A stretch of 64,000 nt of DNA from Heteronotia binoei. Lineage: Eukaryota. Below, piece after piece: positions 51,001 through 63,000 of the stretch. Location of the stretch: the NCBI RefSeq assembly GCF_032191835.1, contig NC_083237.1, positions 16,926,001 through 16,990,000 of the forward strand, written 5' to 3'. The first letter of the stretch is position 1. Every line of letters begins with the position of its first letter. Position numbers: made by a program.

Positions 51001-54000
51001 TTTGTCTGGGTTCTCAGCTGTGGCCTGTCTAACTTGGGTGGCCCTGCATGGCATAGCCCACAGCCTCATTGAACTACGCAAGCCCTCTCACCAAGTCAAG
51101 TCAGCAATCCCTGAGAGGGCTGTCACACATATAAACACACAAATATTGTAATGAAAGAGGCATCACACAAATCCACATGAAACAAACAGAGTTAGAGTTT
51201 TGTACTACTTGGTGAAACACATCTCTGCCCTCTCCAAAACAACCTCTGAGTGAATTGGGTGGTTGAACATCACCTACCAAAGCCATAATTTTTCACAATA
51301 GTATATTGTAAGAAATCAGAGGAAGGGGCAAAGCCAGCACACCATCTGTCTTCTAACACTGAGTATATAACTAATCAGACATTGGTTGGAAAGGTCATTT
51401 ATGAAGCATTACACAGTAGTAGAGGACATGTCTGATATCACCATCTAAAGCAGAGGTGACCAAACTTGCTTAATGTAAGAGTCACATAGAATACATGTCA
51501 GATGTTTGAGATCCGTAANNNNNNNNNNNNNNNNNNNNNNNNNNNNNNNNNNNNNNNNNNNNNNNNNNNNNNNNNNNNNNNNNNNNNNNNNNNNNNNNNN
51601 NNNNNNNNNNNNNNNNNNNNNNNNNNNNNNNNNNNNNNNNNNNNNNNNNNNNGGTGGAAAGAAAGCAACTTTAAGTGCATTCTCCAAGCTGCTGGCTGGC
51701 TTGACCTGGAGAAGTGATTTAAAGAGACAAATGCCTTCTCCAAGCTGGCCAACAGGGTGGTGGGGGTTTCAAGAACCACACAATATGTGTGAAAGAACCA
51801 CATGTGGCTCTCGAGTCACAGTTTGGCCACCCCTGATCTAAAGCAACTCATAATCCAGAGCATGCAAGGGCATTCAGTGGAAGCTGTGGAGAACTGCTGC
51901 CCTAGAAAATGCTAAGTTAGATAGAACACTTGTATTAGAGGCCATGAAGTTGACTGATTAGCAACACAGAGAATGTGTCAGACCTTCTTTCTGCCATCCA
52001 CTACAGCCCTAGGTTAATTCTGTATATGACATTATGTGCTTGGCCATCAGAGATCTCTGATCAGTGACCCATCATATAGTCTCTCTCTCTCTGTCTCTCC
52101 CTCTCTTTTGTAAAGTCCTCTTCTCACTTCTTCCTGCAACTAAATGTCACAGTGAGGGGTGGGATGGGAGGTTCCCAGGGGTCATTTTGTAGAAAAATAT
52201 GTGGTGGAGCTCATCCAGGGATTGTTATGCAGCTGCACCTACTATTCAATGGACAAAAAAAAGAAGACATTGGATTTATATTCCACCCTCCGCTCAAGAG
52301 TCTCAGAGCGGCTCACAATCTCCTTTATCTCCCTCCCCCACAACAGACACCCTGTGAGGTGGGTGGGGCTGAGAGAACTCTCACAGCAGCTGCCCTTTCA
52401 AGGACAACCTCTGCCAAAGCTATGGCTGACCCAAGGCCATTCCAGCAGCTGCAAGTGGAGGAGTGGGGAATCAAACCTGGTTCTCCCAGATAAGAGACCG
52501 CACACTTAACCACTACACCAAACTGGCTCTCTCAGAAGGTGGAACTCTCAGAAGGAGGAGGTGGAACCCTCAGAAAGGTTCATGAGCTGCGCTCCTGTGA
52601 GCTGCCACTGAATTCGAGGCCTAGAGGTTTCTATTCTTTGCTAAAGAAAAAAATCATTGCACAGTTCTCAGATTCACAGGGATTGGTTTAGTTTGACCAG
52701 TCCTTTCTGCATGCCAAACAACTTTTTCCCAACATGCGTAAGATTCTCCCATAGGATCCAGTCTGTTCAACCCAGTGATCATGGGTTTAACAAAACTTTT
52801 ATCACTACAAAAAATCAAGAAAAACATAGATTTGGAGCACTCTTTCTACCTCTGTGTTTGTTTGTGTGTGTGTGTGTGTGTGTGTGTAAAGTGCCCTCAA
52901 ACAGAAGCTGACCCATGGCATTCCCATACGGTTTTCAAGGCCAGTGATAAAGCAGATGTTGTTTGCTATTGTCCTAGTCTGCAAAGCCTAAAACACACTC
53001 ATATACACAAAGATCTATCTAAACATTGCATTCAAATCTTGTCTCCCAGCTGCCAACACTAAATGAAAGCTCTTTATTTCATCTTCAAACAATACTTTCA
53101 TCTGTCATCATCTTCGCAATATTTTGGACACTGCCGCATGGATGTCCTTATTGTGCGGGGTGTAAATGATAGGATTGAGAAGTGGAGTGACCACTACATA
53201 AAAGACTTCAACTTGTTTGTCTGCGTCAGAAGCTGAGCTTGACCATGGTCTCATATACATGGCAACAACAGTAACGTAGTACAAGGAAACCACCAGAAGT
53301 GAGAGCCACAGGTGGAGAAGGCCTTGCGCCTTCCGGCAGCTGACTTCATCCGTAACACCGTAGAAAGTATTTGAATATAGGGGGTCAGGATAGCTGTGAG
53401 TGTACCTGTGAGGAGTACCCCTGCCAACACAAAAATGATGACCTCTGTGGTGTGGGTATCTGCACATGCTAGTTTCAGCACGAGAGGCAGCTCACAGTAG
53501 AAGTGGTTGATGCGGTTGGGTCCACAGTAGGGGTGGCGAAGGAGGCAGGCCACATTTATGAGAGCATTTAAGAAGCCACCTCCCCAGGAGATGGAAACCA
53601 GCTGCAGCTGTCGACCCCTGCCCATGGCTATGGAGTATTCCAGGGGATAGCAGATGGCCAGGTAGCGGTCGTAGGCCATGACACTCAGCAGAATGAACTC
53701 AACCGTGCCCATGTATATACTGACAAACATCTGGGCTGTGCAATGTCTAAAAGAAATTATTCCATTCCCAGCTTTGAGGTGAGCTAGCATCTGGGACATG
53801 CTGGTGGTGAAATAACAGATTTCCAGGCCTGCAAAGTGCTTCAGGAAGAAGTACATGGGCATGTGGAGATTAGGGTCGGACCGGATGAGCATGATGATCC
53901 CCAGGTTCTCCATGACTGTAAGTGTGTAGATGAGGAGGAGGGTGACAAAGAGCAGGATCTGGGATCTTCGGTGACTGGTGAGCCCCACCAGGATGAACTC

Positions 54001-60000: not shown

Positions 60001-63000
60001 AGAAGTGGTTGATGTGGTTCAAGACACAAAAAGTATTGTATGATGGGTTCTAAGCATCTAGGAGGTGCGGTCGAAGTGATATCAAGCTCTTTATTACCGA
60101 CATCATAGTGGAGGCTGCCTAGTTAAGACTGAGAACTGGGCCAATGGGGCCAAACTTATATACATCTCTAGGTTTCCGCACAAGCACATTATTGGGTCAT
60201 TCAAATCGCTGGGGGCTTGTGGTTGGTCCAGGACTGCAGAGATTTGGATCCTGTAGCCCAGGGGTGGCCAATGGTAGCTCTCCAGATTTTTTTTGCCTAC
60301 AACTCCCATCAGCCCCAGCCATTGGCCATGCTGGCTGGGGCTGATGGGAGTTATAGGCAAAAAACATCTGGAGAGCTACCGTTGGCCACCCCTGCTGTAG
60401 CCCATTGTTCCCAAGTCCCCAAGCCAAGTCCGTATGGCTCCAATGAGCCAGGCAGGAACACCCAAAGTCTTCACTTGAGTCCACATACGTAACAAAAAAG
60501 ATAATGCAAAGCACAACCCATGTTTACTGCAGCAATGAAGAAACAACATGTCCAGGGAGCTAGAAAAGCTTCCACGGTGCCACCAGTCCATGGCAATGCC
60601 ATATATGGAGCACGTGGGATGTCCTTGTAGCACATAAGGCAAGGACATGGTACTCTTTCCAAGAAAAACTCTCTGTTTCTGGTATCTGTACATTTGTGTG
60701 TGTGTATTTCCCCATGCCTGAAAGCCATGGTCACAACTCTCCAAGAACTCTTGAATGAGCTTGAAAGCTAAATATCACCTTCCACATCCCAACCCACAGC
60801 TGAGCCTTTGTGTCAAAGGATTCTGGAATTTGAGGTGAAAATAACTCAGGAAGGAGACTCGAGAGATTGGGTCTGATCCAGAGTTGGAAGGGATTTCCAC
60901 GAGGACAGTGGGACTTGGTAAACCTCTCCTGTCCTGCTTCAGCCATTAAAATGCCATTAGCAGGAGACAAGGGAACCTGAACAACAGCAGGGTTCATACT
61001 GATGTGGAAAAAGAAATCAAGAAAAATTCTCCCTTTTCCATTAGCAGAAATTGACTTCTGGATCCAATACTGGATCCAGTATATCTAGCTTGTTTGAGAA
61101 TTAAATTCATAGATACTTCGCATGTTTACAAGAGAAGTTGTCTGTACACAGCAAGAATTGACACCTACAGAAAATTTCCAGTATTTTAAACGTGATCTTA
61201 TTAATTTTTGCATTAAGAATAAATTAATTAATTTTTAAACAAAGCAGGCAGTCAACCTTAAGTCGGGATCAGAAGCCAAATTGATCAAAGAATCTGGGGA
61301 TTTAAGTGAATTTATCAGAGGTATAGCAAAAGTAGAGTTGGTAACCTGAGCTTAACCCACTGGAGGAAAAATGGAGGCTGCCTATGGGAGTGATGGATGT
61401 TATCCTGTTTCCAACAGTGTCGGACTGGATACTTCTGGAAGTCCAACAAGCAGGGTGTCTCAGCCAGGTCCGCTTTCAGCTTCACACGTTCACACCTTCC
61501 ATTAGCAGTGACCAAGTTCATTTCGGTTATGGCGTATCTTGCAAGTAGACAGTAAAGCACTTTTAACAAATAGCTGTCCCAAATTATATGCTGATATTGT
61601 AGATGAAACCTGGAGAGGTAGTGGCTTACAATCGTCTTCCCTTCCTCACCCCACAACAGGCACCCTGTGAGATACATGAAGCTGAGAGAGTTCTGAGAGA
61701 ACTGAGTCCCACCCAAATTCACTCAGTTGACTGCATGTGGAGGAGTAGGAAACCAAACCCAGTTTTCCAACTTAGAGTTCATTTCTCTATGTTGCTGTCT
61801 TTCAGTGCTGCTCTTTCTCTACGAGCAGGAGACCAGGATGAGGCCTGAGAACCTCACATCTGTCATTGAGTTCATCACCAGCCACCGAAGGTCCCAGATC
61901 CTGCTTTTTGTTGTTATCCTTCTCATCTACACATATATAGTCATGGGAAACATGTTGATCATCATGCTGATCTGGGCTGACCCTCATCTCCACATGTCCA
62001 TGTTTTTCTTCCTGAAGCACTTTGCAGGCCTAGAGATCTGTTATGTCACCACCAGCATCCCCCAGATGCTGGCTCACCTCCAGACTGGGAATGGAAGAAT
62101 TTCTTTTAGACATTGCACAGCCCAGATGTATGTCAGTATGTGCCTGGGCACTGTTGAATTCTTTCTGCTGAGTGTCATGGCCTATGACCGCTACTTGGCC
62201 ATCTGCTGTCTTCTGCTCTACACTATTGCCATGGGCAGGAGTAAGCAGCTGCAGCTGGTATCAGCGTCCTGGGCAGGTGGCTTCTTCACTGCTCTTGTAT
62301 ATGTGGGCTGCGTCCTCCACCACCCCTACTGTGGACCCAACCACATCAACCACTTCTGCTGCGAGTTGCCTCTTGTGCTGAAACTGGCGTGTGCAGATAC
62401 CCACATCGCAGAGGCCATCATTTTTGTGTTTGCAGGGGTAGTCCTCATAGGTACACTTGCAGCTATCTTGACCTCCTATGCACTAATACTTTCCACTGTG
62501 TTACGGATGAAGTCAGCTGCCGGAAGGCACAAGGCCTTCTCCACCTGCGGCTCTCACTTGCTGGTGGTCTCTTTGTACTATAGTACTGTTATTGCCACGT
62601 ATATGAGACCCAGGTCACGGTCATCTCCTGACCTGGACAAACAAGTTGCTGTCTTTCATGTCATGATCAGCCCAATGCTCAATCCTGTCATTCACACCCT
62701 GCGCAATAAGGACAATCATGCGGCAGCGGTGAAAATATTGCAAAGATGTTGACAGATGAAATTGATATTCGAAGACTAAACAAAGAGCTTTCCTTCAGAT
62801 TTCAGTGTCAGCAACTGGGAGATAAGATCTGAATAGAATGTTTAAACGGACCTTTGTGTATCTGAGAGTGTTTTAGTCTTTGCAAACTAAGGCCATAGCA
62901 GACACTTTCTGCTTTATCACTTGCCTTGAAAAACTTACGAGGATGCCGAGGGTCAGCTTCTTTTTGATGGCAGTTCACACAAACAGAGGTAGTCCCCCAA

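What the first reader, a model, noticed from the sequence alone, without database searches (positions are those of the whole stretch)
52900..62930. Inverted duplication of a head-to-head OR pair (about 10-kb palindrome)
52900-55800 is the reverse-complement homolog of 60880-62930. The match covers the 3' flank (52930-53100 vs 62760-62930), the CDS, a shared SINE fragment about 60 bp before the acceptor (54085-54220 vs 61620-61775), the intergenic block (55060-55650 vs 61000-61620) and the start of the oppositely oriented OR remnant (55660-55770 vs 60880-60997). The layout is OR(-), remnant(+), spacer, remnant(-), OR(+). Both inner genes are dead and both outer genes are damaged or eroding. Inversion-type expansion of a divergent pair differs from the tandem duplication at 18-32 kb, and arms like these can undergo gene conversion or flip the spacer.
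Basis: seen in the sequence. Interest (0 to 1): 0.65.

Follow-up and report, generated by a model that had tools for sequence, protein, structure and literature searches.

The report
Old inverted duplication of one OR gene
Two decaying olfactory-receptor gene copies face away from each other because a roughly 2.5-kb piece of DNA was copied in reverse long ago; this is ordinary gene-family turnover, not an active palindrome.

Summary
The inverted homology is real and larger than reported. The left arm is 52041-55825. The right arm is 60837-63998 and is cut by the window end. About 2.5 kb is shared, around a 5.0-kb spacer. It covers the OR coding sequence, unique 3' and 5' flanks and a SINE fragment at the same place in both arms. 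Three large insertions are present in one arm only. It is therefore a DNA-level segmental duplication, not chance, a shared repeat or an assembly artefact.

Divergence is even along the arms: 79-85% identity, K2P 0.17-0.25. A heterogeneity test gives P=0.53, and the longest exact match is 32 bp. I see no conversion tract and no good substrate for flipping the spacer.

The left copy has a 1-bp frameshift. The right copy keeps a 304-aa frame but lacks 4 codons and has NPxxY changed to NPVIH. dN/dS between the copies is 0.50.

The "head-to-head pair" reading is not supported. The only inner OR fragment (59866-60631, minus strand) lies outside the right arm and has no left counterpart. The shared 55660-55825 / 60837-60997 stretch shows no OR signal.

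This is an ordinary, ancient event in a non-human, probably squamate, OR cluster. Interest is low.

The parts
52041..55825 (.). Left arm of the inverted duplication. It is 3785 bp, of which about 2.5 kb is shared with the right arm after removing two left-only insertions.
   Evidence: blastn chains, sequence read directly, arm alignment.
60837..63998 (.). Right arm. It is at least 3162 bp including one right-only insertion, and is cut off by the end of the window.
53108..54030 (-). Left OR copy, a pseudogene. A 1-bp deletion between 53296 and 53297 (codon about 245, TM6 region) shifts the frame, so the ORF from the ATG is only 259 aa.
   Evidence: ORF list. tblastn splits it into 54030-53299 and 53281-53111. 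Codon alignment. Pfam 7tm_4 scores 116.5 bits for the N-terminal part.
61838..62752 (+). Right OR copy with an open 304-aa frame. It has a 12-bp in-frame deletion after 61874 (loss of LVGL), SMFFFL in place of PMYFFL, and NPVIH in place of NPIIY.
   Evidence: Pfam 7tm_4 scores 145.9 bits against 178.5 for the intact paralog at 42480-43442. The closest solved structures are class II consensus ORs.
52691..53107 (.). 3' flank of the left copy, homologous to 62753-63146 on the right. It has no other copy in the window except an ~80-bp piece.
   Evidence: 79-83% identity, K2P 0.20-0.25. Copy-number map. The ~80-bp piece also occurs at 44380-44468.
54087..54218 (+). SINE fragment that predates the duplication, left arm. 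Its partner on the right arm is 61620-61768, in the opposite orientation. It lies about 30-55 bp upstream of the putative splice acceptor of the OR exon.
   Evidence: Both fragments match the dispersed SINE family (e.g. 52255-52531) at only 64-75% and each other at about 81%.
61620..61768 (-). The same SINE fragment that predates the duplication, right arm.
55073..55825 (.). Distal upstream block of the left arm, homologous to 60837-61621. It has no other copy in the window, and no OR similarity.
   Evidence: E=3e-104. 79-81% identity at aligned bases. Searches find no OR signal.
60837..61621 (.). Distal upstream block of the right arm.
54219..55070 (.). Left-only insertion of 852 bp: a CR1-like 3' fragment plus a 161-nt hairpin element at 54819-54979. 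The right arm has about 23 bp here instead.
   Evidence: Gap list. Matches to 30120-30216 and 41324-41402. Sub-threshold hairpin miRNA-family hits.
52198..52623 (.). Left-only insertion: a dispersed repeat with a young SINE (52255-52531) nested inside it. The flanking alignments overlap by 28 bp on the right arm, which is consistent with a target-site duplication.
   Evidence: The nested SINE is 88-93% identical to five or more other copies.
63147..63828 (.). Right-only insertion of 682 bp containing a dispersed repeat at 63257-63752.
   Evidence: Four other copies in the window at 79-84%. The left arm is contiguous across this point.
55826..60836 (.). Spacer of 5011 bp. It holds two inverted SINE-like copies (55828-56096 and 57039-57287), a 67-bp x3 tandem array (58711-58914), other repeat pieces and the OR fragment.
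59866..60631 (-). Old OR pseudogene fragment outside the arms. 60631-60493 corresponds to coding-sequence nt 365-506 and 60031-59866 to nt 502-667. The two pieces are split by a ~460-bp nested repeat insertion flanked by a ~14-bp imperfect target-site duplication.
   Evidence: tblastn E=5e-10 to 5e-11. nhmmer E=3.6e-22 and 2.8e-9. It is 48-64% identical to all six window ORs, none clearly closest.
42480..43442 (+). Closest intact paralog (M), used as outgroup. It shares homology with both arms only over the coding sequence plus about 45 bp upstream.

Best explanation
An ancient inverted segmental duplication inside an olfactory-receptor cluster of a non-human, probably squamate, genome.

A segment of at least 2.5 kb was copied in reverse orientation about 5 kb away. 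It carried one single-coding-exon class II OR, at least 1.2 kb of its 3' flank, an already-inserted SINE fragment just upstream of the coding exon, and about 0.75 kb of further upstream sequence.

Since then the two copies have diverged independently at about the neutral rate. They have collected separate transposon insertions and have decayed. The left copy is a frameshifted pseudogene. The right copy keeps an open frame but has lost four codons and the tyrosine of NPxxY, so it is probably non-functional or under relaxed constraint.

Shown: the homology, its extent, the shared and private insertions, the uniform divergence and the lesions. Inferred: the mechanism of the copying event (replication template switch or fold-back, or a tandem copy later inverted), which arm is the original, the age, and loss of function of the right copy.
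For: 1. Collinear inverted homology runs over six blocks, including flanks that have no other copy in the window. E-values are 0, 3e-104, 4e-19 and 2e-11.

2. The SINE fragment at the same position in both arms is old: 64-75% identical to family copies. Three insertions of 426, 852 and 682 bp are private to one arm.

3. Divergence is uniform. With my aligner, K2P is 0.20-0.23 in non-coding segments and 0.17 in the coding sequence. With MAFFT, K2P is 0.17-0.25 over six segments. Chi-square over 21 windows of 100 columns is 18.9, P=0.53; for non-coding windows only it is 6.7 over 12 windows, P=0.82.

4. dS(L,R)=0.276 matches the flank divergence. dS to paralog M is 0.425 and 0.479. dN/dS between L and R is 0.50, against 0.18-0.34 for the other 14 pairs. 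My three-point arithmetic on those values gives omega of about 0.68 on the left branch, 0.38 on the right, and 0.22 on M plus stem.

5. The maximum-likelihood tree groups L with R.

6. Lesions: a 1-bp deletion in L; a 12-bp deletion and changed hallmark motifs in R. The Pfam 7tm_4 score of R is 145.9 bits, against 178.5 for M.

7. An arm identity near 81% with private transposon insertions excludes the near-identical palindromes produced by assembly errors.
Against: - Support for L+R as sisters is only moderate. UFBoot is 71 with a stem of 0.039. Four-taxon site patterns are 30 for LR against 21 and 18 for the alternatives.
- At positions invariant in three outgroup ORs, L and R differ only modestly more often than intact M: 37 and 41 against 31 of 173. 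That count is weak evidence of erosion.
- No transposon library was available. Calling the flank blocks unique rests on copy number within 64 kb only.
- An ~80-bp piece of the 3' flank has a third copy at 44380-44468.
- The outer boundary is beyond the window, so the true size and gene content of the unit are unknown.
- The right copy has an open frame, and its inactivity is not shown.
Confidence: 0.87

Rival explanations
1. One reading: a divergent (head-to-head) pair of ORs was duplicated as a unit, leaving OR(-), remnant(+), spacer, remnant(-), OR(+). In a weaker form, the copied segment ended about 160 bp inside the neighbouring gene.
For: The right-hand fragment is head-to-head with the right OR. 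Extrapolating from coding-sequence nt 365 at 60631 puts nt 1 at about 60995, next to an ATG at 60997 on the minus strand and just inside the arm, which ends at 60837. The arms are 77% identical over this stretch.
Against: There is no OR signal in 60632-60997(-) or 55660-55825(+). Pfam gives 0 families for either translated frame. nhmmer with all filters off at E<=100 finds nothing there or anywhere in the left inner region. Local-alignment scores are reached by 117, 194 and 31 of 200 mononucleotide shuffles, against 0 of 200 for the positive control. The ATGs of the two arms are not in homologous columns. An ATG within a few bases of a predicted point has roughly a 1 in 10 chance. Left homology stops at 55825, beside a SINE-like insertion, and does not resume.
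Confidence: 0.12
2. A homogenised palindrome, or a recombination-competent inverted repeat whose arms still exchange sequence or flip the spacer.
For: The geometry (inverted arms around a spacer) is what such systems need. One coding-sequence window reaches 91% identity.
Against: Identity is 79-85% everywhere with no heterogeneity (P=0.53). The longest exact match is 32 bp and is not exceptional (1223 of 2000 permutations reach it). The arms are broken by private insertions. The 91% windows lie in the conserved TM3/DRY part of the coding sequence. IR-mediated human inversions have breakpoints in near-identical stretches (PMC3961182, passages).
Confidence: 0.03
3. Assembly artefact: a false inverted duplication.
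For: An N run lies at 51519-51652, about 520 bp outside the left arm.
Against: The arms differ by about 19%, carry different lesions and carry different transposon insertions. Artefactual palindromes and haplotig duplications are near-identical (general knowledge).
Confidence: 0.02

Closest known systems
Birth-and-death evolution of OR clusters by local duplication and pseudogenisation (general knowledge; tandem duplication is named as the main mode in PMC10118112, passages read)
   Same: A local copy of a single OR with its flanks, followed by decay of copies. The same window holds a tandem pair of similar age: 19656-20582 and 27650-28570, dS 0.207, flanks 80-82% identical.
   Different: The new copy is inverted, which unequal crossing-over between direct repeats does not produce. 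Both members are decaying, whereas both members of the tandem pair are intact (dN/dS 0.28).
OR-containing inverted low-copy repeats at human 8p23.1 that mediate inversions and inv dup del(8p) (recalled; papers on this seen only as a search listing)
   Same: Inverted paralogous segments carrying OR genes flank a spacer.
   Different: By my recollection those repeats are hundreds of kb long, highly identical and recombination-active. Here about 2.5 kb is shared at about 81% with no exact run over 32 bp.
Human polymorphic inversions mediated by inverted repeats (PMC3961182, passages read)
   Same: Inverted segmental duplications that contain whole small genes, e.g. 7-kb duplications holding KRTAP5-10/11.
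   Different: Those repeats average 94% identity with breakpoints in a 782-bp stretch at 99.9%. The arms here have nothing comparable.
Ampliconic sex-chromosome palindromes maintained by arm-to-arm gene conversion (recalled, no call)
   Same: Gene-bearing inverted arms around a unique spacer.
   Different: Those arms are more than 99.9% identical and much longer than their spacers. Here the arms are about 81% identical and shorter than the spacer.

Membership tests
Class II olfactory receptor (Pfam 7tm_4) | Match to 7tm_4 above the gathering score | tested here: met
   R scores 145.9 bits and the N-terminal part of L 116.5 bits, against a cut-off of 27. The C-terminal piece of L scores 23.7 bits, below the cut-off.
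Class II olfactory receptor (Pfam 7tm_4) | Closer to class II than to class I (OR51/52) receptors | tested here: met
   R against consOR2, consOR5 and consOR6 gives E=2e-82 to 2e-78. Against OR51/52 entries it gives E=1e-33 to 4e-28.
Class II olfactory receptor (Pfam 7tm_4) | Uninterrupted coding exon of about 310 codons | tested here: inconclusive
   R has an open 304-aa frame with a 4-codon deletion. L is broken by a 1-bp deletion.
Class II olfactory receptor (Pfam 7tm_4) | Hallmark motifs (MAYDRYLAIC, PMYFFL, KAFSTC, NPxxY; motif names recalled) | tested here: inconclusive
   MAYDRYLAIC and KAFSTC are kept in both copies. L keeps PMYFFL and NPIIY but has MEN in place of MGN. R has SMFFFL and NPVIH.
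Inverted segmental duplication | Collinear homology that includes unique non-coding flanks, in reverse orientation | tested here: met
   'Unique' is judged within the 64-kb window only.
Inverted segmental duplication | Insertions shared at the same site (before the event) and private insertions (after it) | tested here: met
   Shared SINE fragment, and three private insertions.
Duplicated head-to-head OR pair | A second, oppositely oriented OR recognisable in each arm | tested here: not met
   Nothing on the left. The right fragment lies outside the arm.
Conversion-maintained palindrome | Near-identical arms or conversion tracts | tested here: not met
   79-85% identity. Heterogeneity P=0.53. 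Longest exact run 32 bp.
Recombination-active inverted repeat (spacer flipping) | Spacer found in both orientations among individuals | not testable with these tools
   This needs long reads from several individuals.

The most novel reading that the evidence does not exclude
The right arm runs off the window at 64000. The 2.5 kb seen here could therefore be the inner edge of a much larger ancient mirror-image duplication that doubled part of this OR cluster. In that case the open-frame right copy (4 codons missing, NPVIH in place of NPxxY) might be a still-expressed receptor with a non-canonical activation motif.
Probability: 0.1. Interest if true: 0.3.

Novelty: new member of a known kind. 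Interest (0 to 1): 0.15.

Why it matters
It matters little beyond annotation. It documents that OR clusters in this (probably squamate) genome grow by inverted as well as tandem local duplication. It also gives a clean worked example where shared and private transposon insertions and uniform divergence date the event and exclude conversion. For annotation, 53108-54030 should be called a pseudogene, 61838-62752 a doubtful gene, and 59866-60631 an old fragment.

Tried and rejected
- OR identity of the inner ends of the arms. All were negative. Pfam also gave 0 families for the two genuine remnant pieces, so its silence on short decayed pieces is weak evidence. The nhmmer and shuffle tests did detect those pieces.
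- Resumption of left-arm homology beyond the SINE-like element at 55828. None was found at E<0.01 with word size 7.
- Flank homology between paralog M and the arms. There is none apart from an ~80-bp element and shared dispersed repeats.
- Mosaic or conversion signal among L, R and M within the coding sequence. The minority site patterns (21 and 18 sites) are scattered, with no cluster.
- O/E-like promoter motif (a short consensus recalled from memory). There were 35 matches in the window against 27.1 +/- 5.3 expected, and 9 of 100 shuffles reached 35. None lay in the upstream blocks 55073-55825 or 60837-61621.
- tRNA and Rfam scan of 50000-64000. It found 0 tRNAs and only 8 sub-gathering hairpin miRNA-family hits on two palindromic repeats.
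- Paper search for 'mir-5408': 0 papers.
- Not checked. No transposon library was available. The N runs were left as they are.
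Full report
**Source of the window.** I do not take this contig for human.

- It carries long LINE-like open frames. One is 494 aa at 49024-50508, with weak endonuclease-family Pfam hits. Others lie at 76-1470 and 30114-30665.
- Its dispersed SINEs and repeat tails look to me like squamate elements (BovB-, CR1- and Sauria-type). That identification is recalled; it comes from no call.
- A 14-kb Rfam scan gave no 7SL/Alu-like hit and only hairpin miRNA-family hits below the gathering score.
- The species could not be established because no vertebrate genome collection was open.
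- The two N runs (34021-34225 and 51519-51652) were left untouched.

- The repeat finder reports inverted pairs of 685, 238, 227 and 185 nt at 80-86% over the coding sequence and its flanks. It also reports shorter pairs across the upstream block.
- blastn joins these into 52691-54218 vs 63146-61650 (80.4% of 1544 columns, E=0).
- It also gives 55073-55768 vs 61621-60877. A more sensitive run extends that match to 55821 vs 60837 (E=3e-104).
- The homology continues outward: 52624-52692 vs 63896-63829 and 52041-52197 vs 63998-63869. Reading both strands confirms this by eye.
- The right arm therefore runs to the last bases of the window, and the structure spans at least 12 kb, not 10.

**Is it only coding sequence and repeats?** No.

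- A copy-number map of 51000-64000 against the rest of the window covers the 3' flank (52692-53107 / 62753-63146) and the distal upstream block (55073-55825 / 60837-61621). It finds no other copy of either, apart from one ~80-bp piece that recurs at 44380-44468.
- The closest paralog, M at 42480-43442(+), matches both arms over the coding sequence plus about 45 bp upstream only.
- The caveat is that 'unique' is judged within 64 kb, because no repeat library was available.

**Shared and private insertions.**

- Shared: a SINE fragment sits at the same place in both arms (54087-54218 / 61620-61768). It is only 64-75% identical to the younger copies of its family, so it was there before the duplication.
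- Private to the left arm: 52198-52623, a dispersed repeat with a nested SINE that is 88-93% identical to other copies. The flanking alignments overlap by 28 bp on the right arm, as a target-site duplication would give.
- Private to the left arm: 54219-55070, a CR1-like tail plus a 161-nt hairpin.
- Private to the right arm: 63147-63828, which contains a repeat with four other copies.
- After removing these, about 2.5 kb is shared, around a spacer of 5011 bp (55826-60836).

**Conversion tracts.** I found none.

- With my own gap-tolerant aligner, identity at aligned bases is 81.1% (distal block), 80.9% (proximal 5'), 84.9% (coding sequence) and 82.6% (3' flank), with K2P 0.17-0.23.
- Independent MAFFT alignments of six segments give 78.7-85.0% and K2P 0.17-0.25.
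- The 68% that blastn reports for the distal block counts gap columns.
- Twenty-one non-overlapping 100-column windows are homogeneous (chi-square 18.9, df 20, P=0.53). So are the 12 non-coding windows alone (chi-square 6.7, P=0.82).
- The longest exact match is 32 bp, and 1223 of 2000 permutations reach that length.
- dS between the copies (0.276) is close to the flank divergence. All parts of the arms therefore appear to have diverged since one event.
- Assuming a neutral rate of order 1e-9 per site per year (recalled, not tested), that event lies tens of millions of years back, perhaps about 100.

**The two outer genes.**

- Both are class II ORs. Pfam 7tm_4 scores 145.9 bits for R and 116.5 bits for the first 244 codons of L. 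R is closest to consensus OR2, OR5 and OR6 structures (E about 1e-80), against about 1e-30 for OR51/52.
- L has one frameshift, a 1-bp deletion between 53296 and 53297, which gives a 259-aa ORF.
- R keeps 304 codons but lacks 12 bp (LVGL at the start of TM1). It reads SMFFFL for PMYFFL, CLL for (C/H)PL, and NPVIH for NPIIY.
- dN/dS between L and R is 0.50, against 0.18-0.34 for the other 14 pairs.
- Three-point arithmetic on those values gives omega of about 0.68 (L), 0.38 (R) and 0.22 (M plus stem).
- Against a strong claim of erosion: at 173 positions invariant in the three outgroup ORs, L, R and intact M differ at 37, 41 and 31. R's inactivity is likely but not shown.
- The maximum-likelihood tree puts L with R at UFBoot 71. 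Four-taxon site patterns are 30 (LR), 21 and 18. The split from M was therefore not much older than the inversion-type event.

**The inner 'remnants'.**

- tblastn with five window ORs finds one extra OR piece in the whole inner region, on the minus strand at 60040-59864 (E=5e-10). A weaker collinear piece lies at 60560-60492.
- An nhmmer profile of the six coding sequences places 60631-60493 on nt 365-506 (E=2.8e-9) and 60031-59866 on nt 502-667 (E=3.6e-22). It finds nothing else between 54200 and 61800 on either strand at E<=100 with filters off, apart from one E=8.2 alignment at 56955-56981 that I disregard as non-significant.
- The two pieces are separated by about 460 bp of nested repeats: 60044-60232 and 60391-60494 match one element near 37.9-38.2 kb, and a 141-bp palindrome at 60254-60394 is inserted into it. 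The insertion is flanked by an imperfect ~14-bp duplication.
- The fragment is 48-64% identical to all six ORs. It is an old, unrelated cluster member, not a copy of L or R.
- It lies 206 bp inside the spacer from the end of the right arm.
- Its two ATGs are not in homologous alignment columns.
Extrapolation from nt 365 puts nt 1 near 60995.

**Mechanism.**

- What is shown is an inverted DNA-level copy followed by independent decay.
- How the copy arose cannot be read from junctions this old. The candidates are a replication template switch or fold-back, or a tandem copy that was later inverted.
- Which arm is the original is also open. The plus-strand orientation shared by R and M, and the old neighbour beside R, mildly favour R.
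- Present-day recombination between the arms is unlikely. In the human inverted-repeat inversions I read about, breakpoints lie in near-identical stretches, for example 782 bp at 99.9% inside 7-kb repeats of 94% identity (PMC3961182, passages).

**Comparison and novelty.**

- Local duplication followed by pseudogenisation is the standard mode of OR evolution. PMC10118112 (passages) names tandem duplication as the main mode.
- Inverted OR-bearing repeats are known from human 8p23.1. That is recalled; the papers were seen only in the listing.
- This locus is a small, old, inert example of that kind.
- The same window holds a tandem pair of similar neutral age: flanks 80-82% identical, dS 0.207, both genes intact.
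- None concerns this locus, whose species I could not name.

**Verdict.** Interest is low.

Noticed in passing
window 18634-21018 vs 26524-29930: Tandem (same-strand) duplication carrying two intact ORs at 19656-20582 and 27650-28570. The coding sequences are 89.5% identical, the flanks 80-82%, dS is 0.207 and dN/dS 0.28. Its neutral age is similar to that of the inverted pair, but both genes are preserved.
   Followed up: partly
window 60254-60394 and 48881-49021; also 54819-54979: Palindromic ~140-160-nt elements that look like MITEs. They give sub-gathering Rfam hits to hairpin miRNA families (mir-5408 at 57.5 bits against a cut-off of 90; mir-3938 at 45.1 against 94). These are probably repeat hairpins, not miRNA genes.
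   Followed up: partly
window 58711-58914: A 67-bp unit repeated 3.0 times at 94% identity. Single units of the same sequence are dispersed at about 4.8, 25.1, 27.5 and 44.8 kb.
   Followed up: no
window 52983-53058, 62794-62881 and 44380-44468: An ~80-bp element lies 40-130 bp downstream of both arm ORs. A third copy at 70-72% identity lies about 940 bp downstream of paralog M, in the opposite orientation relative to that gene. It could be a small repeat or a conserved 3' element; this is undecided.
   Followed up: no
window 49024-50508, 48018-48749, 76-1470, 30114-30665: Long open frames of LINE-type retrotransposons (494, 243, 464 and 183 aa). Their length suggests recently active elements next to the OR cluster.
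   Followed up: partly
window 42480-42509: Paralog M has an in-frame ATG ten codons upstream of the start shared with the other ORs. The same ~30 bp are conserved upstream of L and R, and they probably contain the splice acceptor of the coding exon.
   Followed up: no
window 52853-52887: A (TG)17 microsatellite is present in the left arm only. The right arm has a 20-bp gap at this point.
   Followed up: no
window 55828-56096 and 57039-57287: Two SINE-like copies in inverted orientation (74% identical over 270 columns) bracket about 940 bp of the spacer. The first starts 3 bp beyond where left-arm homology ends (55825).
   Followed up: partly
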